DNA of 64,000 bases from Veleropilina oligotropha (lineage: Eukaryota): NCBI GenBank assembly GCA_048128005.1, contig JBEUKZ010000006.1, forward strand, positions 62,001 to 126,000. The letters are read 5' to 3'. Every line of letters starts with the position of its first letter. The stretch's first letter is position 1. The position numbers were made by a program, and so were the translations under genes. Positions 5,455 to 37,280 of the stretch are shown here, in pieces. Under the pieces are notes generated by a model. That model ran no database searches. It was not told the DNA's origin and saw only the letters and a list, made by a program, of their open reading frames with translations.

Positions 5455-5712
5455 AGGGAGGAATGATGCTTAATGTCCTGTATATTTACAACATCGAGGT
5501 TCAAGGCAGGACATGTCCGTGTTATCGCGTGAGGAAACCCGGTCGCCCGGGTAAACCTGCCCTCTTCGGCCAGTCGCGGACAATTGTGATTCATAACTTG
5601 AACAAATGTCAATGCCTCTGCCAGGTATTGAACCCACTGCTGTTCGCATTAACGGAATGAAGCCAGTGAATTTAGAGTGGACACTCTTAGCCACTGCGCT
5701 GCCGAAGCGGCC
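5455..5712 (-). mobile_element. Same SINE family, slightly diverged
   Basis: Colinear with the other copies; degenerate TSD cataca(t/a)tgatgt. Confidence 0.88.
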
Positions 5713-6317
5713 CTCATACAATGATGTACGTAGCCATGAATGAAAGCGGACCGCTTCTTATCCTTGCGTAATGTAGAGTCACACAGCTTGTCATGTGCAC
5801 CACAATGCAATGCTGATTATAATATCTTCATTGTGTACGTAACTTCCAGCAAGTAGACAGAATAATAACATTTCAGTTTATATCTAAGCTGTGTGTCAGA
5901 GACATACCGAATCCGTTACAGTGATAGGCTGTGTATATGATCCATACCAATAGAAGGAATGATTTTAACACACTATTACCTAATAAATAAATATTAATAT
6001 TATGTATGTACCATTCTATCAATGCTCACGACCGTTCTATGTTATGACCCTGCTTGCATCGTATGTCTGTCATTATAGAATATCTTTCCACTTTCTGAAT
6101 TCTGGATTACTTTCCTGACCAATACTTTATCAGTAATGAAGCAAGGTGCAGCACCTCTTCGTCAATTTGTTTCACAAAACTGTTAGTTTTAAGCAAAATC
6201 ACCCTCTAACTAGAGGCAAGTTGGCGACATTGAAATACAGCCTCCAATAAATGATTTGTTGATCACGGTTTGATTTACCTCACTTTGTTATACATTGTTC
6301 ATAATGTCATACAATGT

Positions 6318-6539
6318 TCACAAAGTCGTTGACTCCGTTGAGTCCAGAATGCTCTGGAATATGTTGATGATGTTGTCGAGGCCGAACAGGTACCCGTCCT
6401 CGTGGTTGCCCTCGATCCATTCCTGCCGATGGTCGATCGTGATTTTGTTTTTAAGGGGAATTGTCTTTCCAAAGTCTATCATCCACACACAGGCATTGCC
6501 GGACTTATCGTGAACAAACAACAGCGAACTGCCGATAAC
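6318..6539 (-). CDS. ITPK: IP3 3-kinase, last coding exon ([11 protein letters not shown]...WMIDFGKT...[12 protein letters not shown]...stop)
   Basis: SSLL and IDFG catalytic motifs of inositol polyphosphate kinases. AG acceptor at 6540-6541, 222 nt, phase 0, ends in TGA. Confidence 0.97.
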
Positions 6540-6639
6540 CTAAAATACAGGCGCTATTACTGCAATTATCAAGTTTTACATACTATGTACATTAGGAGTT
6601 CACACATAATTAAACCCTCCTCTGAAGATTGGATTGGAT

Positions 6640-6876
6640 TAGATCTATACTTAATATCCTGTACATATTATCATGGGAGGATAGCCCATTTGAGGAAAGC
6701 CGGTCGCCCGGGAAAACCAGCACTCTTCGACTAGCTAGAGACAACTGTTTTCATGACTGAACAAATAATGTCATGTCCCAACCGAGATTTGAACCCACTA
6801 CTGTTCGTGTCATTGAGATCAAGCCAGTGATTTTCGAAGTCTGCAACCGAAACCACGTGACTGTCAGAGCAGCTCC
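6640..6876 (-). mobile_element. Older SINE subfamily copy
   Basis: Similar to 3325-3560. Confidence 0.75.
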
Positions 6877-6936
6877 TCAAAATAATTCTGCACATGAATG
6901 GTGTCCATTTTATCTCTGAAGAACAGCCTTGATATT

Positions 6937-8753
6937 AAGACAGAAGTGAGCACAGCTTACATACCCCCGTTCGGTGCTTTCAATAATTATAGTCTCTGTC
7001 AATGTTATATATGCCATTATTCTTTAAAAAATAAGAAATCTCTGCAGACGCTGCAGCGAAAAGATGACTAAACCATCGTGTCCTCGACTATAGTCCAGGG
7101 ATTCAATTATATATGAACCCTGGTCAGTTGAGAAGAGTGATATTAGACACTGGACATACAGTGACAGTCTGTTCTTGTAATGGCAATATACAATCTCATT
7201 TTAAGATACCCATGGAAAAAATCGATGAAGAAGTCAGTTTTCAATATCCATTCAATCCATCGGTTTTGATAATCCCAGCTCCACAGAGTGACGAATAAGC
7301 TTAACAGCTTACTGTACTTAATCATGGTGAGCAAGTCTTACATATAAGCACGTCCCTTTCATCGTACATACATACTATTTACATAAGTCAACAAAAGAAA
7401 TAAAGTTACACTTCAAAAATTAAATTTCAATACTCTAAAGCATTATTAGAAAAAACTTTGCACTTGTTGTTTTTGACCATTGTAGCTCAGGTCAATATTA
7501 ATTTATTAAATTATATCAGCAATTTTTTAAAAATATATATTTCAGAAATGTAAAAGTAGCAAAAGACATAACTACTTAACCTAGTTAGTGTGTGTACCAA
7601 GTTTCGTGAAGATAATTGGTACGGTTTGGGAGATATGCTCCGGTCAGAAGTGTCGCACATTATAGTCTATGTCAATCTTATATATGCCATTTTTTGTAAA
7701 AATACAAATTTCAGAAACCTGAAAATAACAAAAGGCACAACCACTTAACTTAGTTAATGTTTGTATCACGTTTTGACATGCTAGCGTTTTCGGTTTGGCA
7801 GATATGCTCTGGACAAAGGCGTCGTCCATTATAGTCCAAGTCAAACTAATATCCGCCATATTTGTAAATAAAAATTTCAGAAACCTGAAATTAGCAAAAG
7901 GCACAAGTACTAAACCTAGTTAATGTGTGTACCATGTTTCGTGAAGCTATCCTGTATAATTTGGGAGATATGCTTCAGACATATAACCCATTCAGTGCCT
8001 TTGTTCATTGTAGTCTATGTTAATCTTATATCAGCAACGTTTTTAGACATAAAAATTAAAACACCTGAAAATAGCAAAAGGCACAACTACTCAACCTAGT
8101 TAGTGTGTATACCAAGTTTAGTGAAGGTAGCCTGTACAATTTGGAAGATATGCTCCGGACAAAGACGTCGCCCATTATAATCTATGTCAATCTTATATCC
8201 GCCATTTTTTTTTAAATAAAAATTTAAGAAACCTGCACAAGTACTCAACCTAGTTAATGAGTGTTTGAAGTTTCGTGAAGGTAGCATGTACGGTTTGGAA
8301 GATATGCTCCGGACAATGTCGTCGCACACTCCATTCATTGTAGTCCATGTCAGTATTACATCAGCAATTTTTTGTAAAAATAAAAATTTCAGAAACCTCA
8401 AAATAGCAAAAGGCACAACTACTCAACCTAGTTAGTGTGTATACCAAGTTTAGTGAAGCTAGCCTGTACGGTTTTGGAGATATGCTCCGGACAAAAGCGT
8501 CCTCAATTATAGTCTATGTTAATGTTATATATCCACCATTTTTTTAAATAAAAATTTCAGAAACCTGAAAATAGCAAAAGGCACAAATACTCAACCTAGT
8601 TAATGTGTATGAAGTTTCGTGAAGCTAGCATGCACTGTTTTGGAGATATGCTCCGTACAAAGTCGAATGACCGGAAGGACGGATGGACAGATGGAAAGAC
8701 GGACGAACGGAACGCTATATACCCCCAGCTACTTCGTAGCATGGGGTATAATA
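6937..8753 (+). mobile_element. HINE-like element with ggagatatgctccggacaa core repeats
   Basis: Subterminal atacccccg, tandem ~160-180 bp repeats, ggac microsatellite, 3' palindrome tatacccc...ggggtata. Confidence 0.7.
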
Positions 8754-8880
8754 AGGTAATTTTGATATGAACGAGAGCTTCTTGTGTCGCTTAACGTCAA
8801 AAGTGGACATGTACAAATTAACATGACAAAGAAACATGGAATATCTGGTGATCGAAACAACAAAATCAATATAAACAAAC

Positions 8881-8952: not shown

Positions 8953-9296
8953 CTGAAAAGATGGAAGAGAAAAGTTAAATTTATTAAGCCAATAGCCGAA
9001 TCTCTAGTTGCTTCACACTTACAAAATGTCTAAGTCAGCATATAAATTTTAATTATGCTTATTTAAATGTCTGTCACAATCAAACAATCAGAATGTGAGA
9101 GATTATTTTTGATAACCAGGACCTTTTAAAAGAGCATTAAAATGATAATCTGCTTGTATAAAATTGTGCCCTCCAAATGACATGACCATTTTAACATAGC
9201 ACTTCTTTAGAGAAGTGAAAACTCAGTAATTTCCTTCAAATTAAACCACCCTTGTACTTACGAATCGTTTACATGCAATGAAAATATAATACTGAC

Positions 9297-9398: not shown

Positions 9399-9631
9399 CT
9401 GAAAAGATACAATTTTAAAGTTATTTATCTATATTTAATTAATAATATAGAATTATGCATTGAATAGCTTAAAAATATACAAAATAAAAACATCTATTTG
9501 GTGAGTTTATTAATTCATGAAAGCAAGCAAAGACAGCATATTTTAGATTTCAAGAAATTTGATTATATAGCCCTCACAATATTGGGTATTTGCATTTAAG
9601 ATTTTGGGAAGAAGGGTATTGCAATTGACTC

Positions 9632-9637
9632 TATATG

Positions 9638-9671
<34 letters not shown>

Positions 9672-9950
9672 TATCTGTATGTATGTATATATGTATACAT
9701 GTATGTATGTATATCTGTATGTATGTATATTTGTATGTAAGTATATTTGTATGTATGTATATCTGTATGTATGTATATCTGTATGTATGTGTATCTGTAT
9801 GTGTGTATCTGTATGCATGTATATCTGTATGTATGTATATCTGTATGTATGTATATCTGTATGTATGTATATCTGTATGTATGTGTATCTGTATGTATGT
9901 ATATCTGTATGTATGTATATCTGTATGTATGTGTATCTGTATGTATGTAT
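9632..9950. repeat. Compound (GTAT)n microsatellite
   Basis: Direct reading. Confidence 0.95.
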
Positions 9951-9952
9951 AG

Positions 9953-10103
9953 GGATTGAACTGCAGTTTGGTTGCATTAATGCTGGTATGAACGCGAGCA
10001 GCAATTACAGTATTCTATGGAGCGCGTTAGTGCTCCATATAGAATATGTAATTGCTGCTTGCGTTCATACCAGCATAAATGCAACCAAACTGCAGTTCAA
10101 TCC
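9953..10103. repeat. Long inverted repeat (hairpin), ~70-bp arms
   Basis: ggattgaactgcagtttggttgcatt... pairs with ...aatgcaaccaaactgcagttcaatcc. Confidence 0.9.
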
Positions 10104-11928
10104 TTATATTTACATTAGCCTTTAACCACAATCCCGTAAAAATAAACATAATATTTAGTTTGTTATGATGTAGTTATTATTGTATATCGTCAGGTAACGT
10201 CCAATTAACGGAACAGCCTTTCCATTGAGCCAAAAAATAGTTATGTAAGGACTTCATTCTGTGGTAAAAATAATGAACACGATTGTTAAATTCAATTCAT
10301 AAATTTATTTGATATTAAATATATATGTAAATTTTACATTAGAGACAAAACTTTTATGCATAACAATTTTATTATAACAAGAAACATAGTGCGATATTAT
10401 ACTACGCCTTGCCTATTTTCTCTATTGCGCTCATAGTAGTATGAACGCAATCAAACTAGTGAGCTAAATAGCAGACGATGTAAATATATCTGTATGTATG
10501 TATACATGTATGTATGCAAGTCTATTCCCATATGTATGCATGGCCTTTCGCTACTCCAACAACGTTAGAGCCTGCTATAGTTCCTTAAATCAGACTCTAA
10601 CGGCTGAGCTAAAATTTCTCACCGCAGAATATTCTAATGGTGAAAATCATGGCCCGTGGCGAAAAATACTAAATTTCAATAAAGTAACTCCAGTTTATCA
10701 CTTACTTGCATTGGTATAAGTTTCTTTATACCAAATAACACCGATAAGCTACTTTGGAACACAAAACGGGCGGTTTAACTTTTACAATATAAACAAAAGA
10801 CGGTCGCCATTTTGTGACGTTAGCATTTCGTTTGACGGCTAAACATTGACAAATAATGCGTTTTATCATACATTATGACAACAAAATCACTAAAAACTAA
10901 CAGGTATGTATATATTCATGCATATTTATACAATTTAAGTATTTACTGTTTGTTTCACTGTATTTTTAATTAGTAATTTGCTCCAAAACCGTTCCCGACG
11001 AAATCCGTCGGGAACCTGCTCGTCATAAAAGGTGCTTAGGATATATGAGGTAGGGGGTAATGTATGAAAGGCCCATCAACCCGGTCTCATATGTTATAGG
11101 AGTAGGCCTTTCCCATAAATCCGCTTTGCAGTCGGAACCTCGCTTTAATCTATCCTTTGGAACGATGGGTAACATGTTTTAAGTTATCCGTCATATTAGT
11201 TATAAAGGGTATAAAAGGCACGATGTTGTGGGAATTATCGCAATCTACCATCTCCATTAATGTTACGATGCTCAACCAGTTGACCTATCAAGGGCCATGC
11301 CTTTGCCATAGTAGATCAATTAAACAAACAATCTGTGCAAATTAAAACCAACATTACTCTTGGGCTATGCTGATAGATTGCATTTTCTCAATTGTCCATT
11401 AAGATAAATCAAGCCATGAATAATCCAGAGTATGGTAACATTGCTACAGTTATCTCCCCTACACTACAGACTATAAAGTTGCTTGCACAATTCGATGAGA
11501 ACTTTTGTACATGAGCTATTCCGCAGCTTTTCAAATATCCTTATTTTGCATGGAATAATCCCCAAGTTATAATGATTACGATATTATTCCAGCCCTCAAG
11601 ATTTCCTCCTGTCCCCTGATACAGCCCATGTACCTCATTCCTCCTGGTCTCTTGTTCTTCGACTATACCTAACTTTCATGCCTTAGCTTTCCTCCCGGTA
11701 TCTTACATATACTGCCCTCGCCCTATACATTCCTCTCAGCCCCTTTTACTGATCCTTACAGTGATGCCCTAGCGCTTCTCCCAGCCTCTTATATATCCCA
11801 TACTCCATACTTTGACCTCCAAGCCTAAGATAACCAGCCCCTTATTACTCCAGCCCCTTATTTTGTCCCACTCCTTCCTTTGATTTACTAGTTTCCTCTC
11901 AACCCCTTATTCTGCCCCTGCTCCTTAC

Positions 11929-12078
11929 TTTGATGCCCTCGATCCTGAAGCCCAGCCCCGTGGAGCTGCTCATGGTCTCTCTCCACTGCATGTAGCGGGG
12001 CTTAGTCACCCCCTTATGCTGGTGCTCCTCCTCTGTAGGGGCAGTAGGGTCCACCTCGATCATCTTCTCGTACATATC
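11929..12078 (-). CDS. ITPK: IP3 3-kinase internal exon ([11 protein letters not shown]...[26 protein letters not shown]), inositol-binding lobe
   Basis: 150 nt with cag/gtaagg boundaries. Highly characteristic IP3K sequence. Confidence 0.97.
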
Positions 12079-12759
12079 CTGCAACGTGTACAATGTATAA
12101 ATAATCACATGCATTCGACATTAATACTTGATCACGAAAAACCGATGAACAAAATATATATCAGTAAACGACGAACCAGGATGTACTCAAAGCCTAACAA
12201 GAATGTGTGTTATGCCAGCTATGAAAGGCATACGGTCAATCAAATCCTCCAAACTTATCCTAGGAATCTTAGTTTTGCCTTTCAGTGTCCTATAACATAG
12301 GTTGCAGTAAGTTTTAGCAATTTTTCAGCGATATCATAGTCGATACCAAAATAAAACAAGTTTATCTCAAAAGAAATTTTTTGGCTACATCATCCAGCCA
12401 GTACCCATTGCCAGGAAGCCCGTCGCCAATCCATACAGTGCTGTCTGGGTTTATTGTTGATTAATTAATCTCAGTGATTTGGTGAGAACCCAGGCATGCC
12501 CATTTAAGTGGCACAAACGGAAAATACCAGCAAACAACAGACAAGTTCCAAATTAAGCAAGACATAGTCACTAATATTCCCTGCAAGTCGGTTGGACGGG
12601 CGGAACTCGTTTAATTATCCACTGACAAATTCGGTGTTGCGGGAAATAATAAGGTGAAAGAATTAACATCATGACTCATTATGTTTTCAAGAACTACTGT
12701 TCATATATATGTATTTCATCATTCAATTGATCTAGTGTCATTCCATCCGCATTCATTAC

Positions 12760-12887
12760 CTTCCTGAGTTTGGGATTTTCCTTGGCCTTTTCCAATTCTT
12801 CTTCAAGATACGTTCGAACACCCATTTTAACATCCATGACACTTGGGCATTCAAACCCACAGAGCAAATCTTGAAGCTGTAGAAATC
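12760..12887 (-). CDS. ITPK: IP3 3-kinase internal exon ([31 protein letters not shown]...PKLRK)
   Basis: PxxxDxKxG signature (PSVMDVKMG). 128 nt, phase 1 to phase 0, gtaatg donor. Confidence 0.97.
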
Positions 12888-13301
12888 CTGGATTTAATTA
12901 AAGATCAATATCCAACATTTTTAGTAACAAGGTAAAGTCGAATATACAGAGTCTGAGAGTTAATTTAACCAAAGCTTACCAATAATAAGAGGTTCTTTTC
13001 TTTTAATAATGAACAAACCCACTGATTTTAGTCATTTATACGGATATTAAATACAGCAAATAATACTATAGGTGCTTTATGGCAATAGTGTAAATAACCA
13101 AACAACCATCTAGATTGCATCATGTGATGTACTATAGATTGTATAACAATATACGTCAATTAGTCAAGCGGTTTTCCATAAAATCACTCCATCAAATAGC
13201 ATTGAAGCTATCAGGTCAGTAATATGCCACCGGTTTATAATATACACAAAACAATTCTTTCAGATATATATACATCAGAACACCTCGATAAAAAAGGATA
13301 C
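12888..13301 (-). other. U12-type (minor spliceosome) GT-AG intron, phase 1
   Basis: 5' splice site GTATCCTTTT. Branch-like TCTTTAAT (12897-12904) with A residues 11-12 nt from the AG; no polypyrimidine tract. Confidence 0.88.
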
Positions 13302-13442
13302 GCTCTCCATCTTTTTCTATGTCGCCCTTGAATTCGGGGATGTATGGCCGCAGCACATCTAACATTAATTTAATGAAGCATTTCTGCTCTTTTGAGTTGT
13401 ATGCCTTTAATATATTTCCTGGATCACCAGCGAGAAAGCTTC
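13302..13442 (-). CDS. ITPK: IP3 3-kinase internal exon (GSFLAGDPGNILK...LRPYIPEFKGDIEKDGER)
   Basis: 141 nt, cag acceptor, GTATCCTTT donor. Matches the IP3K N-lobe and is in frame with both neighbours. Confidence 0.94.
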
Positions 13443-13496
13443 CTGTTAAAAGAATAAACAAACTGTGAATGTAAACTGTTTCAGAGAATCTCTTGA

Positions 13497-15611
13497 CATG
13501 GTGAGTAAACCCCGTCATGCAGAATCTAATGGTGAGTAAACCCAGTCATGCAGAATCTCATGGTGAGCAAACCCATCATGCAGAATCTAATGGTGAGCAA
13601 AACTCGTCATGCAGAATCTAATGGTGAGCAAACCCATCATGCAGAATCTCATGGTGAGCAAACCCATCCTGCAGAATCTAATGGTGAGCAAACCCATCCT
13701 GCAGAATCTAATGGTGAGCAAACCCATCCTGCAGAATCTAATGGTGAGCAAACCCATCAAGCAGAATCTCATGGTGAGCAAACCCATCCTGTAGAATCTA
13801 ATGGTGAGCAAACCCATCCTGCAGAATCTAATGGTGAGCAAACCCATCATGCAGAATCTCATGGTGAGCAAACCCGTCATGCAAAATCTCATGGTGAGCA
13901 AACCCATCATGCAGAATCTCATGGTGAGCAAACCCATCCTGCAGAATCTAATGGTGAGCAAACCCATCATGCAGAATCTCATGGTGAGCAAACCCATCAT
14001 GCAGAATCTAATGGTGAGCAAACCCGTCATGCAGAATCTCATGGTGAGTAAACCCAGTCATGCAGAATATAATGGAGAGCAAACCCGTCATGCAGAATCT
14101 CATGGTGAGTAAACCAGTCATGCAGAATCTAATGGTGGGCAAACCCATCATGCAGAATCTAATGGTGAGCAAACCCGTCATGCAGAATCTCATGGTGAGT
14201 AAACCCCATCATGCAGAATCTCATGGTGAGCAAACCCGTCATGCAGAATCTCATGGTGAGCAAACCCGTCATGCAGAATCTAATTGTGAGCAAACACATC
14301 ATGCAGAAGCTAATGGTGAGCAAACCCATCCTGCAGAATCTAATAGTGAGCAAACCCATCATGCAGAATCCCATGGTGAGCAAACCCATCATGCAGAATC
14401 TAATGGTGAGCAAACCCATCATGCAGAATCTAATGGTGAGCAAACCCATCATGCAGAATCTCATGGTGAGCAAACCCGTCATGCAGAATCTCATGGTGAG
14501 CAAACCCATCCTGCAGAATCTCATGGTGAGCAAACCCGTCATGCAGAATCTAATGGTGAGCAAACCCATCCTGCAGAATCTAATGGTGAGCAAACCCATC
14601 CTGCAGAATCTAATGGTGAGCAAACCCCATCATGCAGAATCTCATGGTGAGCAAACCCATCATGCAGAATCTAATGGTGAGCAAACCCGTCATGCAGAAT
14701 CTAATGGTGAGCAAACCCATTCTGCAGAATCTAATGGTGAGCAAACCCATCATGCAGAATCTAATGGTGAGCAAACCCATCATGCAGAATCTAATGGTGA
14801 GCAAACCCATCATGCAGAATCTAATGGTGAGCAAACCCATCATGCAGAATCTCATGGTGAGCAAACCCGTCATGCAGAATCTAATGGTGAGCAAACCCGT
14901 CATGCAGAATCTCATGGTAAGCAAACCCATCATGCAGAATATAATGGTGAGCAAACCCATCATGCAGAATCTAATGGTGAGCAAACCCATCATGCAGAAT
15001 CTCATGGTGAGCAAACCCGTCATGCAGAATCTCATGTTTACTCAATAATCATGTGCCCAAATATCTCATGGTGAGCAAACCCATCCTGCAGAATCTCATG
15101 GTGAGCAAACCCGTCATGCAGAATCTAATGGTGAGCAAACCCATCCTGCAGAATCTAATGGTGAGCAAACCCATCCTGCAGAATCTAATGGTGAGCAAAC
15201 CCCATCATGCAGAATCTCATGGTGAGCAAACCCATCATGCAGAATCTAATGGTGAGCAAACCCGTCATGCAGAATCTAATGGTGAGCAAACCCATTCTGC
15301 AGAATCTAATGGTGAGCAAACCCATCATGCAGAATCTAATGGTGAGCAAACCCATCATGCAGAATCTAATGGTGAGCAAACCCATCATGCAGAATCTAAT
15401 GGTGAGCAAACCCATCATGCAGAATCTCATGGTGAGCAAACCCGTCATGCAGAATCTAATGGTGAGCAAACCCGTCATGCAGAATCTCATGGTGAGCAAA
15501 CCCATCATGCAGAATATAATGGTGAGCAAACCCATCATGCAGAATCTAATGGTGAGCAAACCCATCATGCAGAATCTCATGGTGAGCAAACCCGTCATGC
15601 AGAATCTCATG
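13497..15611. repeat. 30-bp minisatellite, ~70 copies
   Basis: Unit atggtgagcaaacccatcatgcagaatct(a/c). Confidence 0.95.
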
Positions 15612-16352
15612 TTTACTCAATAATCATGTGCCCAAATATCTCTACAAAATTGTGCAAACTATAAACGAACTATGTTGTGACAAATTTGAGACTATTAACT
15701 CGTTGGTGTCGTAACATCCAATGCACAGAGTGTTCTGTGTGTTGCAAGGTTTTGAGCAATTTGGTCGCAGTAATACTGGTACAAAACTCAATATTATAAT
15801 AGGCAATTAAACCATATATATTCTGAAAGGTCAGTGTTATGGGAGTAAAAAAACCTTTCAATAATATTGATATCATGTGGTTACCATGACGACAATACAT
15901 GAACACGTGGTCATGACATAAAAAACACAACATTTATCTATTTATTTAGTCATAAACGATATACATTACAGTATACAATACTATGTAAGTTGGGTAGAAA
16001 ATCATATACTAGATTATATTATACCAGGGGTTACAAAATAAAATCAGGATAATATATGTAACAACTAACATAAACATTATGACATCATGGTGGTAACCAT
16101 TTTGACAATTTGATCATGTGTCAAAACGTGGTTATATATGTATGGCAATAAATTATTTCATGGTGCAAAGGAAGTAACTTTGTTTGGATTATCATTCGAA
16201 CATAGTTGTTACTGGCGTTGAAGTCGGCTTCATACATATCAAATATATAGTATTTAGTGACCCCCAAACAGAAAAACGACTTGATACGTCATTCGACTTT
16301 TGTGGAATGGCAGGAAATACACTTAACAGGTGTCGTTCGACTCCAAAGAGTT

Positions 16353-16612
16353 AGTTGCTTCGACAGCTGTGTGGTATCGTTTGTAAACTCTGAAAAATCA
16401 CCGGCTTGATTCCACTGACGCGAACAGTAGTGGGTTTACACCTCGGCTGGGGCATCACACATTTGTTTACGTTATGAATCACAGTTGTCCATAACTGGTC
16501 GGAAAGGGCAGGTTTCCCGGCCGACCGGCTTTCCTTCCGCGATAATATGGACATGTCCTGGTTTGAACTAAACGATGGTTGGAAATATACAGGACATCAA
16601 GCATCGATCCTT
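16353..16612 (+). mobile_element. Older SINE subfamily copy, opposite orientation
   Basis: Reverse complement aligns by eye with 3325-3560 and 6640-6876. Confidence 0.78.
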
Positions 16613-17161
16613 TCCTTTCCAAAGAGTTAATCAATATTAATATAAATATCAATATTAATACTGTGTAAACAAGGCAGAGGTTTCAGAAAGTCCAGAAAAT
16701 ACCACATATGCTTTTTGTGCAAAATGAAGAAGCAAGAATGTCTTACAATCTGAAATGTCAAATTGAATGTAACATTTGACAAATAGAAACTCATAATTTC
16801 AGAGATTTAGAGCTATATATATGACTAAAAAATATCGGATTATTCAGAGACAACTGTCGTAGCCTACTGGCGAACTTCAACCCACTACCTTATAGTTTGT
16901 GTTTCTTAGTAGATGTCATATACGTGATGGGAATTTATTTAACGATTTAGTCAAAACAGCTTCAATTTGGTTGGATGCATTTATTTATGTACATGTATTG
17001 GCTAGATTACCAGTCTAATGACCATGTCAGCGGATTACATTTTTCAATCATGCTGTAACTTTCCGTCAGAACCTTAATTCAACATCTACATGCAGTAGAA
17101 AGAGGGTTTAATGGTTTATATTGTCATTCCTCCTTTTGCACATCATACATAACACTGCATT

Positions 17162-18046
17162 AAACTAGATGTTGTTATTGTCCCAATAACAGGAATGTCT
17201 CCCCTGCTTGAAATTCTATTTTTAGCAACAGGTCATGTGACCTTTGACCCCAAATGCAATTCCAAGCATCCTTTCTTCATATGCAACATGCCTGCTAAAT
17301 ATGAAACAGTAGTTACTGTCTGGATAACAAATAAAACAAATTTCTGAAAAATTATATTTTAGTAACATGTCATGTGACCTTTGACCGATTGACCTCGAGC
17401 GCAATCCCAAGCATCCTTTTCACATATACAACCTGCCTGCTAAATATGAGGAAGATTGCTAAATATGATCGGTAGTTATCGACTGGAAAGCAAATTGCAA
17501 TCAAAATTCTATTTTTAGCAACAGGTCACGTGACATTTAAATATTTGACCCCAACTGCAATCCCAATGATCCTATCCTGATAGGCAACCTGCCTGGTAAA
17601 TATGAGCATGTTTGCTAAATATGAACAGTAGTTATCGTCCGGAAAGCAAATTGCAATCAAAAATTTAGAAAATTCTAATTTTAGCCATGAACGATTACCC
17701 TCAAATGCAATCCCATGCATGCTCTTCTCATGGGCGAGCTGTGTGCCAAATATGGGCATGAGCATCCAATCTAAAGAGTGGTTATCGTCCGGAAACCAAA
17801 TCGGAACCAAAATTCTATTTTTAATCATAGATCACATGACCTTTGGCATACTGACCTGAAAAGCAATCCCATGCGACCTCTCCTCATAAGCAACCCGTGT
17901 ACCAAATATGAGCATAATCGTTGTAAGGGAACGGTCGTTATCATCCGGAAACCAAAGTATGAGACAGACAGACGGACAGACGGACGGACGGACAGACAGT
18001 ACAAAAGCAATATGTCTCCCTACAGGGTAGCTAGGGGAGACATAAA
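17162..18046 (+). mobile_element. HINE-like element
   Basis: atgtctccc subterminal motif repeated in the 3' palindrome, ~150-bp core repeats, (gaca/gacg)n. Confidence 0.7.
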
Positions 18047-19732
18047 TATGCCAAACCAATCGCGACTTTTGAATGAATGACATATTGAGCACCAATTAAC
18101 ATTTTATGACTATGCGACCTGTTTAGCTAACAATTATTAAAGTACGGTTTTAAGTAAATATTTGCAATCAAGATATATTAAAATTTATATGATAATCAAT
18201 AGTGTGATGATATCCACATGTCACATGACATCTATATATTTAGCTAGATAGATCGCACAATACATAACACTGAAAATATTGAGCATTAACAAACCACAAC
18301 TGCATCAATCATATGATAAGAGCTTTGTGGTGGCCATGTTTAATCAAAGATTTGAAATGTTTATACATATCATTAAATGCTCCAAATTACATGAACAAAC
18401 TTGCTGTTTTATTATTAAAGATAATGCGTGGCGACATTAGCATATTTATCTATGTCTAGAGCAACGTTTAATTGGACCGTTAAAATGATATATGCATGCG
18501 AATAGTTGGTAACTACTGCAATGACCTCTATACACCTGGGTCTGCACTTGTAATACATTATAGCCGTCAACTGTCAACTTGTGCGCTGGAATATTGTTCG
18601 TTTATAGTAAATAGGTAAGAGATCCCCATAAGGTAATCGGTTACCAAACAAACGCAGACTACCACATCATCTATATCTACTAAATATAAACACGCTATTT
18701 GCTCAGAACGGATAGATAAGTCTTGGTTCTCGCTCCGGATCATACTGTTTGCTTATCTGTCAAAGGAGACAACACACCGCAGTCATTTTAGTGGGCCAAT
18801 GACGTCAATGGCGGTTTACTTTCAATTAAATTTGGCATTTTACACTTGACCACAAGACAAGCCCATACATTAATCCCTTAGATACAGAAAAATCGCAGAA
18901 AGAAAGTATTTCTCAGGCAAACTTTAATATCTCTGCATTGACCTTGCTTCATGTGTTGTAGCTATTCTTAGGACAAAGGAGTAAGCCCGCATTTCTCTCA
19001 GACAAACTTTAAATGTAGCATGTATGCACAATGAAATCAGACGGAAATGAAAATCGGTCACAAACAGCCATAAGATGTTGTCTGGCCAACGTTATCCTGT
19101 CTGTCTATATATACAGCAGAAAGTAGAGTCACTTCCTTCATTACGAATATAGTTACTTTCCCGGAAAATAGTAATTCAGAACAACTGCAACTGAAAGTGA
19201 GTCAGATCCCTCATGAATAGTGTACAGACGACTAAGTTAACGCTATATTATAATTAGTATTGATGATTTTAATGGCCACTTAAACTCTGAGAACATAGTG
19301 CATATTGATTCCCGATGAATAGTAGTAGGTTGCTTATTTATAGAGCTGCACGTCTGTATTCAAGAGGAGACACTTACATTATATAATATCTATGCACCGT
19401 ATAGAGATCATTTAGAACAAATTTATCTCAATGTGCGTCAGGTGTCTCACAACGGTCGTAAGAAGAAAACACCTTACTGCACATTGATGATTTACACTTA
19501 AAAATACTTAATTTATTTTAACAATTACAGAGCCTACATGTGATTAATTAGAAACAATGACATTAAAGTTGCATTGTCCTTAAAGTTCGCATATTGCCAT
19601 ACAATGCCTTACTTGCATATTTGTGGATGTTACACAAAGTTTTCATGATTCAAATTGGAAGATCAAACATTGTTTACTGTTTTATAATAAACAAGAGTGT
19701 CATGTCACAATATACGCCCATCTCAATGTTCT

Positions 19733-19993
19733 GGGACGGAGGAATTATGCTTAATGTCCTGTATATTTATAACATTGAGGTTCAAGGCAGGACATGTCCG
19801 TGTTATCGCGGGAGGAAACACCGGTTGCCGGGTAAACCCGCCCTCTTCGGCCAGTCACGGACAACTGTGCTTCATAACTTGAACAAATGTGTGCTGCCTC
19901 AGCCGGGGGTCGATCCCACTACTGTTCGCGTCAGCGGAAACAAGCCAGTGAATTTAGAGTGGACACTCTACCCACTACGCTACCGAAGTGGCC
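19733..19993 (-). mobile_element. Young SINE copy
   Basis: Near-identical to the other young copies; TSD tctcaatgttct. Confidence 0.9.
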
Positions 19994-20809
19994 TCTCAAT
20001 GTTCTATTGATGTCATGGGCAAATTGTTTGCAAAATAATGAAGCATTTTCGCATGAACAAATGTGGTGAATGATGGATGAAATTTGCTCGAGTCGTCAAT
20101 CAGACCCTGGAGAAAGTCAATTTTGAATACTTTACATAATTCAAGAGCCATATTACCTGATAATTTGGACCCTTACCAGTTGACCAGAGCGACATTAGAC
20201 ACTGGATACATTCTGCTCTTGCATAATGGCAACATATACTGACATTTCAAGATACCACTGGAATGAACCAATGGGAAGGCAGTTTTCAAAATCAGTTTAA
20301 TTTCTGATTTTGATAATCCCAACTTCTCAGAGTGACCATTAAGCTTAACAGCTTACTGTGCCTATCGGCAGTGAGCAAGTCTTACAGATAAGCATACGTC
20401 CCTGTCATACAAACATAATACTTACCGTACATACTCTATCTGCTTCTTTCTATCCTCAATATTTCAAGGCATAATTATACTTTTCAGAATAACTTATATA
20501 GTGTGTAGGCATAACAAAAATAAATCATGTAACTTCTTCATAAATTTTTTTGGAGGGTGGGGGAGGGGGTGGGAGGTGCGACAAATCGGAATGACATGTA
20601 TGTGCCTCCCTCAGCTCAGTTTCAGAAAGCTACCATTTCTCTAAATGAAAAGAAAGATGTGAGAAATAGACCACTTTCAGAGACTATGTTCAAAATTGCC
20701 AAAAATCACCAAAAAAACAATAAATTTTTCCCTTTCATCATACAAATATAATACTTACATAACAATATCTGAGCATGAGAGGGGGGGGGGGGAATCGGAA
20801 TAATTAATA

Positions 20810-21352
20810 TGTATGTGCCTCCCTCAGCTCATACACTTATGAAGCATCTATGGTATAAGTTTAATTGATCTAGAACACATACTTTTTGAGATTCAACAGA
20901 GCTAAATGCAAAAACTTAAAAAACTTAACACAGATTACTATGTTGACAAAGTCACGGTACATAAAATCTAGGTTATATATCAAGCATCTGAAGCATTCAT
21001 TAAACAACAGTACCCATGAAGTATCTATGGTCCAAGTTATGTTGATCTAGATCTTATACTTTGTGAGAAACAGAGCTAAACGCAAAAACTTAATGTAAAA
21101 ACTTAACACAGATTACTATGTTGACAAAGTCACGGTACATAAAATATAGGTTATTATCAAGCATCCGAAGAATTCCGAAAACAGCAGTGCGCATGAAGCA
21201 TCTATGGTCCATTAGTTATGTTGATCTAGAACATATACTTTTTGAGAAACAGAGCTAAACGCTAAACATTAACAATTTTTGACGATCGCAGTCGCCGCCG
21301 CCGACAGAAAAGCAATACCAATAGTCTCTTTCCCTACGGGCGAGACAAAAAT
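20810..21352 (+). mobile_element. HINE-like element (3' part) ending just before an IP3K exon
   Basis: ~180-bp repeats, gccgcc microsatellite, gtctc...gagac terminal hairpin. Confidence 0.55.
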
Positions 21353-21395
21353 TACTGATTCCAATCAAATCACAACCCGATTGGCTGCACCTTAC

Positions 21396-21498
21396 CTTGG
21401 TGCCCGGCCAGTTGCACCCATGGATACTTCTGCTTCTTGAAATGTTGGATAAAGGGAGACCATCGCACCATGTTTCGGATTTTCTTCCATGAACTTTG
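21396..21498 (-). CDS. ITPK: IP3 3-kinase first shared exon ([35 protein letters not shown]), calmodulin-binding region and start of the kinase domain
   Basis: WKKI.NMV.WSPF...YPW.QLAGH motif. ttttttcag acceptor (phase 0) and gtaagg donor (phase 1); 103 nt. Confidence 0.96.
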
Positions 21499-21560
21499 CT
21501 GAAAAAATTAAAATTCACATGTATACAATTTTAACTCCTGACAGACACGACAAAAGCAGT

Positions 21561-27476: not shown

Positions 27477-30111
27477 AAATGAGTTCATTAAAATATTACT
27501 AATAATTCAGTGTCAGATATATCATTCTAAACATGCTAAAAGTTACTCCCAGATTACAGAGAAAAGGATAGCAAACGTGTAAAGATCATTTTGGTATAAC
27601 TTCTTCAAACCTTTGATCACCAATGAAGAAAAATGTTCACAGCCGATACTGCCTACGATCTCGATAGTGCCTATGATCTTGAGAGCATACATGCCAAGGG
27701 GACACTCAAGGCCAAGTATCATCGGAACACATGATTAAAAATACCCTAATGACAGACTATAATCACTCAGACAAAGTACATTATATATGTGCAGAATGGA
27801 CAGTGAAAAACTCCAACCAAAAATAATTTATACATCATTTTACATCGAAGAGGTGACCGTGCCACCAATTTTGAAAGGCAACTTTATTGTACTATCATGT
27901 GACCAGGGCAGGGTAATAACATATACAAAGACATTTGCATATATTTACATCGCGCCAGTATTAAGTGATGCACGAACACTGGCAGCTGTTATATTATTCA
28001 AGAAGGCAGCTCCGAATGGTCACTAACACATACAGCCAACCACTAAATGAAAGATACGGAGGTCACTACAAACATTCAACCAGCCGCTACAGCAACGATC
28101 CCATGGTCACTCCCCTACACCGTTACTCAAATCTGGGCTAATTCATGCAGTTTATGTATACCTGCCTACTGCAAAGAAGTTTGCTTTAGTTTCACTATAA
28201 ATAAACTTGGGACCATGTGAAAATTGTTGGAAATGTATACACATTATTATGATGACAAATTAATATTGAATGACAACTCGCAATCAATTTGTCATGAAAG
28301 AATTACCACGTAGAATTTTGACATGGGTCACTTGACCATAGGGGGGTCATTTTACCCTAGTGATGAAATGACCCACAGGTCATATTAGCTTAATGGAAAA
28401 TGACCCGCGGGTCGTTATACCATGGGGTCAAAATATCATATGACACAGTACTTAATTTACTCATCTACTACGATTATCTTATCGACCCAATTATGACCGA
28501 AATATTCTTGGCGTGGTCGTTAAACATCAATTCAATCAATTCAGTCTACTACGATTAATAATCAGAAAGATTGTTGTCAGAGCTCTAAGATTTATACTTA
28601 ATATTATAAATAAAAGTAATGGTGAACTATAGGATATTAATGAATCATCGTCACTATTAAAGGCATGGAATACTATATATATCTGGTATCCTTTACACTT
28701 TAAAACGATCAAAAGAAATATTTTCCATATTTTCTACCATCAAATTTAGTCCAAAAATCATGTCAGTGTGATAGGGTTTTACAAGTACAGAATAACTGTA
28801 TACGAATTCATTGTGTTAATGTATTCAGCTACTGACGTAAAAAAATAAGGATCACAAAGCAAGTCGCTTGAACATCACAGCTCAAGGATTTGACCCAGCA
28901 GTTTATGTCATTTGCCATGCATGGTTGGATTCTAATTGAAATTGAAGCTGAAAATATTCGCCATCATTGAGCATGCATGGAGAGTCCATTATAATGGATC
29001 AGATTATTAGCGAAAGTTACTTAATTCCATTGACTTATAAACAGCAACGATCGGACAATATACACATGCAGAATTCGAAAGGCAATGTCATCACCATGTC
29101 ACAGTTGGTGTAAATCTTGCCAATTTAATTACTGACATGTTATAAAATTGACCATATCGTATAAGGGTGTACCATCACAAGTACGTTTTGGGTAGATGCT
29201 TAAATACGTTTTGGGTAGCTGCTTAATATCACATGTTAATACCCTCCAGGGTCTAATATAATGCTTCTGTTAATCAATGCAGTGAAGTTAGTAAATTGGG
29301 TGATTTAATATTGTGAAGTTGTTCACATTTTGTTGTGAGCAGACTCGATCGATATTTCAATATAGAGAATTCAGTAAATAACAATTGCCACTAAAAGCAT
29401 ATATCACTTATTGTATTAGCCAAGTCACACCAAAGAATATGACATCAATTATTCACATTATTGAGAGTGCTTATTATTTTGCAAATGTGTCGTTATAAAA
29501 GCCACATTATAATAACAACTTTGTGTCAAATATATAAATCATATATTTGGTCAAATATTTAACGTGATTCCAAGCTCAGAGAAAAATTGTCAACATGTTT
29601 CCATCCCTACTTGTGTACATTTTTCATGACTTGATTTGATTCAATCCGTCTAGTTTTTCGACTACTTTATAACAATTTTTCTGGTTGGTCTGTAGTCGTG
29701 GGCCATATACACGTACAGAATGGAGACTGAGTGTACATATGGAATCGAAATCGGGTAACTAGTGTCGTAGCCCAGTATCGTAAGTTAACAACTAGGCCAG
29801 TCCACCTTTCTAGTAATTAAATGTATCTCGATTTTAACAGGCTCCTAATAAGGGAAGGTATTTGTGAAGTCATGTGAGAAATTACCTTATATCTGTATAT
29901 CACAGTTTGCAAAAGATAACAAATATACTTACAAAAATCCAAATTTAATTTTACTCCAATGAACATATTCATATAAAACATCAGCACATTAGGATACAAT
30001 TGCGAGATTTTTACTCCTCAAGTATCGATGTTTTCATGACAATACTGTATGCATTCTATTAAGATAATAAACATGCAGCGGTCAACAGGACTTGCGAGCA
30101 CGTCAACTTAC

Positions 30112-30597
30112 GGCAATGTCGACGTCAACAGGGGCCTCCCAATCGCTGCCATCATCGCTGTCAGATTCATCGTGGTGTTTACGAGGCGATATTGAATTAT
30201 CGGGGTGTTCACAAGAGGGACCTGAATCATCTTGTTCACAAGACATATCTGAGTGGTGTTCAGGAAACAGTTCAGATTCATCATGATGTTCACATGACAG
30301 TTCATCGTGGGGTTCACAAGATAGTTCTGATTCATGAGATGGTTCCAAATCAATGTTGAGTCCCTCAGATGGTCCTGGTGAAGCATTGTTGCCATTATTC
30401 TCACCCATTTCACGCTCTGGTGGGTATGTATTCCCGTTGAACGAAGCCAAACTGGTCGTCAAAGACCCACTTCCTATCTCCGACACCGCGATCTCATTTA
30501 CATTCATATCATAACGATTGCTGCAAGTATCCACGTGCGCGATTAGCCTATTTGAATTCATTGCGGCTATTTCCTCTGCGCGATCCTCCATCTCCAT
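30112..30597 (-). CDS. ITPK: Putative alternative first coding exon of IP3K (162 aa, acidic with His/Cys-rich repeats)
   Basis: ATG in good context (actATGG) with an in-frame stop upstream. Open frame ends at GCC|gtaagt, phase 0, matching the 21498 acceptor. Confidence 0.75.
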
Positions 30598-30867
30598 AGT
30601 GAAGCAACCACTAAATTATTGACTTTGACAGCTTGACCAATGTGTAGATGTCAAGTGATAAGGCTATGTCCAGGTAAATTGCCTCCTTGAAATCGCCAAC
30701 AAGAAGTATGTCTATACAGCAAAAATGTGGCAGAACAGAGCACATACAGACAAGAGACCTGTTGCTTCTCATGCATTATAAGTCAATAGTGACGTAATTG
30801 GATTTCAATTCATTATGGTAAAGCCTCCATGAATACAATCGCAGCACAATCGATAACACACAGTGGT

Positions 30868-36593: not shown

Positions 36594-37280
36594 TTATATA
36601 ATAAATGCACTGTTCATTGCTGATGATTATAAAATGCCACCCTGTCGTGATTCTTTTATCAGGACTATATACAACCGGACGTGTATAATGACGAAATAAG
36701 ACGATGTAGTGTCACGAAACTTCGTTTATGATATTGCTAGTTAGACCACGTTTTTAAACTAAAAATGGATTTATTAGTTTATTAAAATCATATTTATTTT
36801 ATTGTAAATTTTGGCAATGGTTCAAGACAGTTATATCACTCGGAAGAAGCCTGTGCACTTGGAGCTCGCGCCATGTGGTTTAATAACTATACTTATCACA
36901 TGCCAAACCTATTATGGAACGGTAGAAGCCGTTCCATAAATTTCGATACAAAAGACACGTGCCACAAGTATGCAAATGAGGGTGAGCATGATGCCCGATC
37001 GTCGCATCTGGCACCAAGTTGATTAGGCGGCGCATCACTATCATTAACATATTGAATAATTCATACGCATTGACTCATCGATTACTGATAAAGCAAAGAT
37101 GTTGAACTATTTTTTATTGGCGTACTGGCGTGGCGCGTGCTTTCGAGGCGTGATGTGTCCGAGGCATGGCAATTTATGGCTGAATGTACTGACAGAAATG
37201 AGTTTTAAAACGTAAAGAAATTAGTTTAAAAACGTAATAAAATCAGTTTAAAGGTAAATAAAGTCATGTGATAAAGAAGA

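What the first reader, a model, noticed from the sequence alone, without database searches (positions are those of the whole stretch)
12888..13301. Minor-spliceosome (U12) intron in the IP3 3-kinase catalytic domain
Seen: the frame-preserving donor reads GTATCCTTTT, a TCTTTAAT branch-like motif lies 11-12 nt from the AG, there is no pyrimidine tract, and the intron is phase 1. Established: these are U12 hallmarks, and U12 introns are rare and often rate-limiting for expression. Inference: every isoform of this kinase depends on the minor spliceosome, just upstream of the PxxxDxKxG exon. I do not recall this intron in vertebrate ITPK genes but cannot verify that.
Basis: partly seen in the sequence, partly recalled or inferred. 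Interest (0 to 1): 0.7.

Follow-up and report, generated by a model that had tools for sequence, protein, structure and literature searches.

The report
U12-type intron in invertebrate IP3 3-kinase
A 414-base intron inside the catalytic domain of an invertebrate inositol-trisphosphate 3-kinase gene carries the sequence signals of the rare minor (U12) spliceosome, at an old intron site that other animals have converted to an ordinary intron or lost.

Summary
On the minus strand, intron 13301..12888 (414 nt, phase 1) splits an IP3 3-kinase gene just before the exon that encodes PSVMDVKMG (the PxxxDxKxG motif).

- Junction: the 13302|12887 join gives the same 18-residue spacing as 55 of 55 homologues that carry both anchors. 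The only other frame-preserving donor would add 6 residues.
- Donor: GAGC|GTATCCTTTTT is a 9/9 match to the U12 consensus, has C at -1, and matches the U1 consensus at only 4/9 positions. The five neighbouring introns match at 6-8/9.
- Branch site: TCTTTAAT puts its branch A 10 nt from the 3' end. Only 0.37% of AG sites in the window have such a motif at that distance.
- Other organisms: unnamed genomic contigs show the same site and phase as U12-like (L078), U2-type (L052, L051) or absent (L058).
- Catalogues: human/mouse minor-intron lists have no ITPKA/B/C entry but do list IP6K1/2/3.

Not obtained: RNA-seq runs, the host genome (so no snRNA check), or an intronIC score.

Verdict: a genuine U12-type intron by sequence criteria (about 0.87), a new member of a known kind. 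The "no pyrimidine tract" cue does not discriminate in this gene.

The parts
12888..13301 (-). Candidate U12-type (GT-AG) intron, 414 nt, phase 1, 30% GC
   Evidence: Best-scoring junction against orthologue P0022. The join gives spacing 18, as in 55/55 homologues. The sequence was read. Folding is no better than shuffles (z -0.35).
13293..13301 (-). 5' splice site GTATCCTTT, preceded by exon ...GAGC (-1 = C)
   Evidence: It matches the U1 consensus at 4/9 positions, against 6-8/9 for the neighbouring introns.
12897..12904 (-). Branch-site-like motif TCTTTAAT; presumed branch A at 12898, 10 nt from the last intron base
   Evidence: Human and mouse minor introns with the same TCTTTAA core are catalogued (CACNA1C row).
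12888..12889 (-). 3' splice site AG
   Evidence: No other AG occurs in the ~30 nt upstream (read).
13302..13442 (-). Upstream exon (141 nt, phase 1 in and out) encoding ...SFLAGDPGNILKAYNSKEQKCFIKLMLDVLRPYIPEFKGDIEKDGE + C of the split Arg codon
12760..12887 (-). Downstream exon (128 nt), which begins the Pfam IPK domain
   Evidence: Pfam IPK PF03770, E 7e-10, profile positions 1-37
12820..12846 (-). Codons for PSVMDVKMG (PxxxDxKxG motif)
   Evidence: Translation; coordinates counted from the exon frame
13282..13283 (-). Rival U2-type donor GAG|GTGTTC. It preserves the frame but would add 6 residues.
   Evidence: spacing 24 against 18; score 243 against 259
13443..21395 (-). Intron 1, U2-type (AAG|GTAAGG ... 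TTTGTTTATTCTTTTAACAG), phase 1; contains a 30-bp satellite
12079..12759 (-). Intron 3, U2-type (AAG|GTAATG ... GTTGCAG), phase 0
   Evidence: The acceptor was corrected by eye from the printed sequence; one search's own coordinates were 3 nt off.
9399..11928 (-). Intron 4, U2-type (AAA|GTAAGG ... TATCTTTTCAG), phase 0
8953..9296 (-). Intron 5, U2-type (TTG|GTCAGT ... CTTCCATCTTTTCAG), phase 0; the donor is less certain
6540..8880 (-). Intron 6, U2-type (GAG|GTTTGT ... TGTATTTTAG), phase 0
6321..6539 (-). Last coding exon (SSLLFVHD...WMIDFGKT...[10 protein letters not shown])
   Evidence: Pfam IPK, E 2.2e-13
21396..21501 (-). Exon encoding [34 protein letters not shown]; the 5' limit is approximate

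Best explanation
The stretch 13301..12888 (minus strand) is a GT-AG U12-type intron of an inositol 1,4,5-trisphosphate 3-kinase gene. The host is a lophotrochozoan, most likely a mollusc.

Proposed mechanism, inferred from established knowledge of minor splicing:
- U11 snRNA pairs with the donor GTATCCTTT.
- U12 snRNA pairs with TCTTTAAT and bulges the branch adenosine about 10 nt from the AG.
- U4atac/U6atac-U5 then catalyse the joining of 13302 to 12887. This restores an Arg codon (C|GA) and links the N-terminal part of the kinase core to the exon that starts the Pfam IPK domain and carries PxxxDxKxG.

The donor has C at -1, lacks +5 G and matches the U1 consensus at only 4/9 positions, so the major spliceosome should use it poorly. 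Any transcript that encodes an active kinase must therefore pass through minor splicing.

The site is an old, shared intron position. It is U12-like in the window and in L078, has been converted to U2-type in L052 and L051, and is missing in the bivalve-like L058. This matches the published one-way U12-to-U2 conversion and loss model.

Shown here: the junction, the motifs, their rarity, and the states of the orthologous site. Inferred: which spliceosome acts, and any kinetic or regulatory consequence.
For: - Gene identity: exons match Pfam IPK. The best protein matches are annotated IP3K A/B/C-like proteins of molluscs, echinoderms and vertebrates. tblastn with P0002, P0022 and P0046 tiles seven exon blocks on the minus strand.
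- Junction: it is the top-scoring of all candidate junctions. Of the 120 homologues, 55 have both anchors and all 55 have spacing 18, the same as the U12 join. The other 65 lacked one anchor, being fragments or regex misses.
- Donor: GTATCCTTT is a 9/9 match, -1 is C, and U1-consensus matches are 4/9 against 8, 7, 7, 6 and 6 of 9 for introns 1 and 3-6.
- Branch motif: it lies 10 nt from the 3' end, and only 24/6519 AG sites in the window have the like. Bona fide human/mouse minor introns with a TCTTTAA core are listed in the Olthof 2019 tables.
- Phase and -1 base: phase 1 with a non-G at -1 fits the reported bias against phase 0, and against -1 A/G in phase 1/2 GT-AG U12 introns (Moyer 2020 passages). 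A lack of -1 G is associated with real dependence on the minor spliceosome (Olthof 2024 passages).
- Orthologous site: L078 has TGCCTTAAC 13 nt before CAG|AG at the same site and phase.
- Host clade: molluscs and Lingula are reported as relatively enriched in minor introns among protostomes (Larue & Roy 2023 passage). The window gene is closest to Lottia, Patella and pectinid proteins at 60-67% identity.
Against: - There is no transcript evidence.
- The host genome is not held and the window contains no Rfam family, so the presence of U11, U12, U4atac and U6atac in this organism is assumed from its likely clade.
- The branch motif departs from the recalled consensus TCCTTAAC at 2 of 8 positions. 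In a PWM scheme the intron might therefore score as 'minor-like' rather than 'minor'. I could not run intronIC or the MIDB matrices.
- The pyrimidine-tract criterion does not separate this intron from introns 3 and 6.
- The bare donor motif is no more frequent in the window than chance allows.
- L078 shows only the 3' 49 nt of its intron. Its donor is off the contig.
- The bivalve-like L058 lacks the intron, so it is not universal even among molluscs.
- Species identity is inferred only from 60-67% protein identity.
Confidence: 0.87

Rival explanations
1. It is a real intron with these boundaries, but it is removed wholly or mainly by the major (U2-type) spliceosome. That would make it a 'minor-like' or hybrid intron whose U12-like donor is a relic or a coincidence.
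For: - The branch motif matches the consensus at only 6/8 positions.
- Olthof 2024 reports that only about 55% of expressed minor introns and about 10% of minor-like introns respond to minor-spliceosome inhibition.
- The same site is U2-type in L052 and L051, so conversion has happened repeatedly.
- Minor spliceosome genes could not be checked in this organism.
Against: - The donor has neither -1 G nor +5 G and matches the U1 consensus at 4/9 positions.
- The 3' end has no pyrimidine run between the branch motif and the AG (TAAATCCAG).
- The chance of ATCCTTT after a GT is about 1-3e-4, and of the branch motif 0.37%.
- According to Olthof 2024, unresponsive minor-like introns typically carry -1 G, which is absent here.
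Confidence: 0.08
2. The intron is U2-type and uses the downstream donor GAG|GTGTTC (13284|13283) with the same acceptor. This would give a kinase with a 6-residue insertion, and the GTATCCTTT would be exonic.
For: This donor preserves the frame, has -1 G, and is the second-best junction found (score 243). The extension is free of stop codons.
Against: - It gives spacing 24, whereas 55/55 homologues have 18.
- GTGTTC lacks +4 A, +5 G and +6 T.
- The score is lower than for the U12 junction (259).
Confidence: 0.03
3. The locus is a decaying or unexpressed gene copy, so its splice signals have no present function.
For: No identical or near-identical protein is in the 5.8-billion-protein collection; the best match is about 67% identical.
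Against: - All seven mapped exon blocks are open, in consistent phase and flanked by plausible splice sites.
- The catalytic motifs are intact.
- A perfect 9-nt U12 donor would not be expected to persist without selection.
Confidence: 0.02

Closest known systems
Canonical GT-AG U12-type (minor) introns, e.g. those catalogued in human/mouse CACNA1C, SCN5A and MAPK genes
   Same: The donor is |GTATCCTTT. The branch motif has a TCTTTAA core close to the 3' end; CACNA1C is listed with ATTGTATCCTTT / TTTTCTTTAAGA. It is one minor intron among several U2-type introns, it is not in phase 0, and -1 is not G.
   Different: The branch motif ends in T instead of C and has T at the third position. The classification rests on sequence only: no expression, lariat or knock-down data exist for it.
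U12 introns of mammalian IP6K1, IP6K2 and IP6K3 (paralogues in the same IPK superfamily)
   Same: They belong to the same protein superfamily (Pfam IPK). All three are listed as minor-intron genes in mouse and human, with donors ACA|GTATCCTTG/TCG, ACA|GTATCCTTT and ACC/ATC|GTATCCTTA/TTG (human IP6K1/2 also). Papers describe exon 6 of IP6K1 and IP6K2 as encoding the kinase domain. In the window, the U12 intron directly precedes the exon that starts the Pfam IPK domain.
   Different: IP6K is a different subfamily. I could not map the IP6K introns onto their proteins, so whether the position is homologous is untested.
Orthologous U2-type introns at the same site (L052, L051): class-conversion sets like those in Table 1 of Moyer et al. 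2020
   Same: They share the same codon position relative to the [YF][ILV]x[LMF]xDLL block and the same phase 1.
   Different: L052 has G|GTGAGT and a TTTTTCCTCAG acceptor. L051 has T|GTAAGA and a long T-rich tract. Both are clearly U2-type. L052 has acquired -1 G, as the conversion model predicts.
'Minor-like' introns (Olthof et al. 2024)
   Same: They combine a strong minor-type donor with a branch site that may score below the best minor introns.
   Different: Minor-like introns that do not respond to minor-spliceosome inhibition usually carry A-2 G-1. Here the exon ends in G-2 C-1.

Membership tests
U12-type (minor-spliceosome) intron | 5' splice site matching |RTATCCTTT (consensus recalled; it agrees with the catalogue rows seen) | tested here: met
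   GTATCCTTT at 13301-13293, a 9/9 match, located exactly at the homology-defined exon end
U12-type (minor-spliceosome) intron | Branch-site motif resembling TCCTTAAC, with the branch A roughly 10-15 nt from the 3' splice site | tested here: met
   TCTTTAAT matches 6/8 positions and both differences are C to T. The branch A is 10 nt from the last intron base. Only 0.37% of AG sites in the window have such a motif. The same core occurs in catalogued minor introns.
U12-type (minor-spliceosome) intron | Terminal dinucleotides GT-AG or AT-AC | tested here: met
   GT...AG
U12-type (minor-spliceosome) intron | No polypyrimidine tract between branch site and 3' splice site | tested here: inconclusive
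   The stretch between the motif and the AG is TAAATCC. However, the overall pyrimidine fraction (0.60) and longest run (5) do not differ from U2-type introns 3 and 6 of the same gene.
U12-type (minor-spliceosome) intron | Poor fit to the U1/U2-type donor, with -1 not G | tested here: met
   4/9 matches to MAG|GTRAGT against 6-8/9 for the neighbouring introns, and -1 is C.
U12-type (minor-spliceosome) intron | High probability from a trained classifier (intronIC or the MIDB matrices) | not testable with these tools
U12-type (minor-spliceosome) intron | Host genome encodes U11, U12, U4atac and U6atac snRNAs | not testable with these tools
   No genome is held for the window and no Rfam family is found in the 64 kb. 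The only support is indirect: molluscs are reported as relatively rich in minor introns.
U12-type (minor-spliceosome) intron | Excision depends on the minor spliceosome (junction reads, retention on knock-down) | not testable with these tools
   No sequencing run was available to lay on the window, so neither junction reads nor retention could be examined. A knock-down is a bench experiment.
Inositol 1,4,5-trisphosphate 3-kinase (IPK superfamily, Pfam PF03770) | IPK domain with PxxxDxKxG and the C-terminal SSLL / IDFG-type motifs | tested here: met
   Pfam IPK hits on three exons: E 7e-10, 2.8e-3 (18 bits, below the 22.2-bit curated cut-off) and 2.2e-13. [17 protein letters not shown] and WMIDFGKT appear in the translations.
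Inositol 1,4,5-trisphosphate 3-kinase (IPK superfamily, Pfam PF03770) | Closest relatives are IP3K A/B/C rather than IPMK or IP6K | tested here: met
   1205 hits. The named ones among the 120 listed are overwhelmingly 'inositol-trisphosphate 3-kinase A/B/C(-like)'. Identity to mollusc IP3Ks is 60-67% across the domain.
Inositol 1,4,5-trisphosphate 3-kinase (IPK superfamily, Pfam PF03770) | Phosphorylates Ins(1,4,5)P3 at the 3-position | not testable with these tools
   This needs an enzyme assay.

The most novel reading that the evidence does not exclude
The U12 intron at this site is not lineage-specific. It would be the same ancient minor intron that survives in vertebrate IP6K1, IP6K2 and IP6K3.

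On this reading, a phase-1 U12 intron sat one codon before the hydrophobic strand leading into PxxxDxKxG before the IP3K and IP6K subfamilies diverged. It has been kept as U12 in all three mammalian IP6Ks and in this invertebrate IP3K. In vertebrate ITPKA/B/C and several invertebrate IP3Ks it was converted to U2-type or lost.

Support so far:
- All three IP6Ks carry a GT-AG U12 intron. The preceding exonic triplets are ACA, ACA and ACC/ATC. That variation pattern is what a phase-1 intron after a TAY codon would give.
- As I recall (from memory, from no call), IP6Ks have a Tyr followed by Lys or Gln directly before that strand.
- Exon 6 of IP6K1 and IP6K2 is described as the kinase-domain exon.

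Probability: 0.4. Interest if true: 0.6.

Novelty: new member of a known kind. Interest (0 to 1): 0.4.

Why it matters
U12 introns make up well under 1% of introns, and their slow or regulated removal is thought to gate the expression of their host genes. One paper on this turned up in a listing (Younis et al. 2013, PMC3728624; I saw only the listing and the start of the abstract).

A minor intron inside the catalytic core of IP3 3-kinase would make this calcium and inositol-phosphate signalling enzyme a minor-spliceosome target in this lineage. According to the catalogues I could search, its human and mouse orthologues are not.

The site also offers a compact natural series for studying class conversion: U12-like, U2-type and absent, all at one codon position. 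If the IP6K link holds, it would be an example of a minor intron conserved across an ancient paralogue split. The practical consequence is modest, since this is one more minor intron. It also warns gene predictors that this exon junction needs U12-aware models.

Tried and rejected
- RNA evidence: the look-up of sequencing runs (kind rna, window 11900-13500) listed no RNA holder.
- Own genome: none is held, so no search for U11/U12/U4atac/U6atac was possible. An Rfam gathering scan of the window gave 0 matches.
- Whole-window motif counts: RTATCCTTT gave 2 against 1.71 expected, and RTATCCTT gave 5 against 5.83 expected. The motif is not enriched. The two other same-strand ATATCCTT sites (61879, 42442) have stop codons in all upstream frames and are not exon ends.
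- Prokaryotic genome-contig scan with alignment A1: 23 pattern matches, none confirmed.
- Metagenome scan: only the best 80 of 224 confirmed loci were kept, and 70 of those 80 have a single HSP across the site, being mostly transcript-like or intronless. Single-exon genomic contigs probably fell below the cut.
- Uninformative or unreadable supplements:
  - PMC7507305 gave 0 hits and I had no valid positive control.
  - PMC6865273 gave 0 hits, including for the SCN5A control, so it holds no gene lists.
  - The supplements of PMC10639083 and PMC7367187 are PDFs that cannot be read here. They may hold per-species or orthologous intron tables bearing on molluscan ITPK introns.
- PMC9636908 mentions ITPKB and minor introns, but separately. 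Its ITPKB case is a branch-point deletion in intron 3, with nothing said about intron class.
- PMC11000326 gives exon counts only: 23/31 animal IP3Ks have six introns. It gives no intron types or positions.
- Literature search for IP6K2 with U12/minor-intron terms: none of the 15 papers listed held 'IP6K2' in the main text.
- Intron RNA fold: z -0.35, so there is no structured element.
- Earlier notes of this scan: nothing by place, sequence or words.
- Alternative N-terminal exons: only weak matches, 63689-63390 to an oyster isoform at E 3e-4 and 30141-30112 to a Patella isoform at E 0.64.

Full report
**What is there.** The finding's coordinates delimit an intron on the minus strand. Read 5' to 3' on that strand, the sequence is ...GAAAAAGATGGAGAGC|GTATCCTTTTTTATCGAGG...GGATATTGATCTTTAATTAAATCCAG|GATTTCTACAGCTTCAAGATTTGCTC.... 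Joining 13302 to 12887 gives one open frame...[59 protein letters not shown]. The Arg codon is split after its first base, so the intron is phase 1. The downstream exon matches Pfam IPK (PF03770) profile positions 1-37 at E 7e-10, and the last exon matches positions 126-190 at E 2.2e-13. The intron therefore sits exactly at the N-terminal edge of the Pfam kinase domain, one exon ahead of PSVMDVKMG (PxxxDxKxG).

**The gene.**
- A search with the last exon returned 1205 relatives. The named ones among the 120 listed are mostly annotated as inositol-trisphosphate 3-kinase A/B/C(-like), from molluscs, echinoderms, brachiopods, tunicates and vertebrates.
- tblastn with a unionid, an oyster and a Lingula protein tiles seven exon blocks on the minus strand from about 63.7 kb down to 6.3 kb.
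- Across the catalytic region the gene is most like Lottia, Patella and pectinid proteins, at 60-67% identity. The host is probably a mollusc or another lophotrochozoan without a close annotated relative.
- No whole genome is held for the window.

**Is the junction right?**
- I scored every GT/GC/AT...AG/AC pair within +/-45 nt of the exon cores by global alignment of the resulting peptide to the oyster orthologue. The 13301..12888 intron wins with 259. The runner-up scores 243 and uses the donor GAG|GTGTTC at 13284|13283.
- As an independent check, I measured the distance between two conserved anchors ([FY][VI]Px[FY] and [LM]QDLL) in the 120 homologues. 55 have both anchors and all 55 have a spacing of 18. 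The other 65 are fragments or miss the regular expression.
- The U12 join gives 18 and the rival donor gives 24. The junction is well supported without RNA data.

**Is it U12-type?**
- Donor: it matches the recalled consensus |RTATCCTTT at 9/9 positions. The exon ends in ...GC, so -1 is C.
- Fit to the U1-type consensus MAG|GTRAGT: the site matches at 4/9 positions, while introns 1, 3, 4, 5 and 6 of the same gene match at 8, 7, 7, 6 and 6 of 9 and look ordinary (GTAAGG, GTAATG, GTAAGG, GTCAGT, GTTTGT).
- Branch motif: TCTTTAAT lies with its second A 10 nt from the last intron base. It differs from the recalled consensus TCCTTAAC at two positions, both C to T.
- Catalogue precedent: minor introns with the same TCTTTAA core are listed for human and mouse, for example CACNA1C with ATTGTATCCTTT / TTTTCTTTAAGA.

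**Chance.**
- The bare donor motif is not enriched in the window: 2 found against 1.71 expected for RTATCCTTT, and 5 against 5.83 for RTATCCTT.
- Only 2 of 7311 GT dinucleotides on both strands are followed by ATCCTTT.
- Only 24 of 6519 AG sites (0.37%) have a T[CT][CT]TT[AG]A[CT] motif with its branch A 9-15 nt upstream.
- Both signals coincide at the one junction that homology demands.
- The other two same-strand ATATCCTT sites are not at exon ends.

**The pyrimidine-tract cue.** This cue is weak. The candidate's pyrimidine fraction at -23..-4 is 0.60 and its longest run is 5 nt, which is the TCTTT of the branch motif. Introns 3 and 6 are no richer (intron 3's 3' values there were computed 3 nt off).

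**Agreement with the literature.**
- Moyer et al. 2020 (passages) report that U12 introns avoid phase 0, that GT-AG U12 introns in phases 1 and 2 avoid A or G at -1, and that class conversion runs from U12 to U2.
- Olthof et al. 2024 (passages) report that -1 G lets the major spliceosome take over minor-like introns, and that introns responsive to minor-spliceosome inhibition are biased against -1 G.
- The intron here is phase 1 with -1 C.
- Larue & Roy 2023 (one passage) name molluscs and Lingula as relatively enriched in minor introns among protostomes. A working minor spliceosome is therefore expected in the likely host clade, though I could not verify it for this organism.

**The same site elsewhere.** A scan of metagenome contigs with an alignment of 16 catalytic domains (A1) confirmed 224 stretches and kept the best 80. 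In 70 of the 80 a single tblastn segment crosses the site; these are mostly transcript-like or intronless contigs. The informative genomic contigs are as follows.

| Locus | State at the site | Details |
|---|---|---|
| L052 | U2-type, same codon position and phase 1 | ACTG|GTGAGTATAA...TATCTTTTTCCTCAG|AATAC; has -1 G |
| L051 | U2-type, same site and phase | AAAT|GTAAGAAG...TTTTTCTTTTTGTTGTTGAAG|AT |
| L078 | U12-like 3' end, same phase | Contig begins inside the intron. The visible 49 nt end in ...TTTGATTTGCCTTAACAAGTTGTACACAG|AGTACCTGCAG. A near-consensus branch site lies 13 nt before the AG, with no pyrimidine tract in between. The donor is off the contig. |
| L058 | Intron absent | One exon covers query residues 42-131 without a break, and introns at residues 42 and 131/132 are kept as in the window. 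It is 70-79% identical to heterodont bivalve proteins. |
| L079, L034, L076 | No break at the site | |

The position is therefore old and shared. It is U12-like in two divergent lineages, U2-type in two, and lost in others, which is the pattern the conversion and loss model predicts.

**Vertebrates and paralogues.**
- In the supplementary tables of Olthof et al. 2019 (human and mouse minor-intron genes), words beginning with 'ITPK' occur 0 times, while SCN5A, MAPK1x and CACNA1C are present.
- In the 2.6-million-character table of Olthof et al. 2024, 'ITPK' again occurs 0 times, while MAPK14 is present.
I could not determine whether vertebrates have a U2-type intron at the site or none.
- The same tables list all three IP6K paralogues as minor-intron genes in both species. 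Their donors are ACA|GTATCCTTG/TCG (IP6K1), ACA|GTATCCTTT (IP6K2) and ACC or ATC|GTATCCTTA/TTG (IP6K3) (for human IP6K1/2).
- Two papers describe exon 6 of IP6K1 and IP6K2 as encoding the kinase domain (passages).
- The C/T variation at the middle base of the exonic triplet looks like a wobble position. That would fit a phase-1 intron directly after a TAY codon. From memory only, IP6Ks have a Tyr followed by Lys or Gln directly before the strand that aligns with [YF][ILV]Q[LM]QDLL.
- If so, the IP6K minor intron and this one occupy the homologous codon. I could not map the IP6K introns to their proteins with the tools available, so this remains a lead.

**Mechanism.**
- Shown: the exon junction, the motifs, their rarity, the poor fit to U1, and the mixed states at the orthologous site.
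- Inferred from established knowledge of minor splicing: U11 pairs with GTATCCTTT, U12 pairs with TCTTTAAT and bulges A12898, and U4atac/U6atac-U5 carry out catalysis.
- The intron separates two exons that both encode core kinase sequence, and all N-terminal exons lie upstream. Any catalytically competent isoform must therefore remove it.
- Evidence for alternative N-terminal exons is weak. Whether removal of this intron is slow or regulated is not addressed by any result here.

**What could not be done.**
- No RNA run could be listed, so no reads were laid on the window.
- No host genome is held, and no snRNA was found in the window.
- No intronIC run was possible.
- The supplements of the two broadest surveys are unreadable PDFs.
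- The prokaryotic genome scan found nothing.
- Earlier notes of this scan held nothing relevant.
- The intron RNA has no unusual structure (z -0.35).

**Verdict.** This is a GT-AG U12-type intron (confidence about 0.87) in the catalytic domain of an invertebrate IP3 3-kinase, and so a new member of a well-known kind. Its interest lies in the evolutionary series at one codon and in the possible link to the IP6K minor introns.

Noticed in passing
window 13498-15611: A 30-bp satellite of 70 copies with 92% matches (unit ATGGTGAGCAAACCCATCATGCAGAATCTA on the + strand) fills the 3' part of intron 1. It ends only about 55 nt upstream of the acceptor at 13443. It reads as long stop-free 'ORFs' (GLLTIRFCMM...) in several minus-strand frames.
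   Followed up: partly
window 9634-9951: A 16-bp tandem repeat (TATGTATATCTGTATG, 20.5 copies) lies inside intron 4 and gives spurious open frames.
   Followed up: partly
window 19754-19918, 5473-5757, 37229-37447 (minus-strand frames): Three copies of a dispersed repeat encode nearly the same peptide (...AEAAHICSSYEAQLSVTGRRGRVYPATGVSSRDNTDMSCLEP...) within introns of the kinase gene. It is probably a transposable-element fragment (and ORF lists).
   Followed up: no
window 7514-8513 and 49972-50259 (minus-strand frames): A second repeated element has the recurring peptide ...SISPKPY.LASRNF.H.LTRLS.CAFCYF.VSEI.IFTKNGGYKIDIDYN.... It appears as several tandem or dispersed copies in introns.
   Followed up: no
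window 63081-63998, 42941-43384, 30106-30615 (minus strand): Three long open frames lie upstream of the catalytic exons. The first runs off the window end and matches the N-terminal region of an oyster IP3K isoform (E 3e-4). The second contains a CDCDDCL motif like the one in the Aplysia and Lingula N-termini in alignment A1. The third ends in SDWEAPVDVDIA, like Patella isoform X3 (E 0.64). They may be alternative N-terminal exons.
   Followed up: partly
window 28686-28694 (+ strand): This is the only other GTATCCTTT in the window. It is on the opposite strand to the gene, inside an intron, and is consistent with the chance expectation of 1.7.
   Followed up: partly
protein P0001 (EukProt record, 610 aa): This is the top-scoring database hit, and it looks like a misassembled or duplicated model. 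The catalytic region appears twice, and the first copy has a 42-residue insert between HRNSW and GNREDG that looks like a retained intron.
   Followed up: no
L058:3578-3847: This bivalve-like genomic contig has exons A and B fused, so the intron at the U12 site is precisely absent, while the flanking intron positions are kept. It is a candidate case of clean loss of a minor intron within molluscs.
   Followed up: partly
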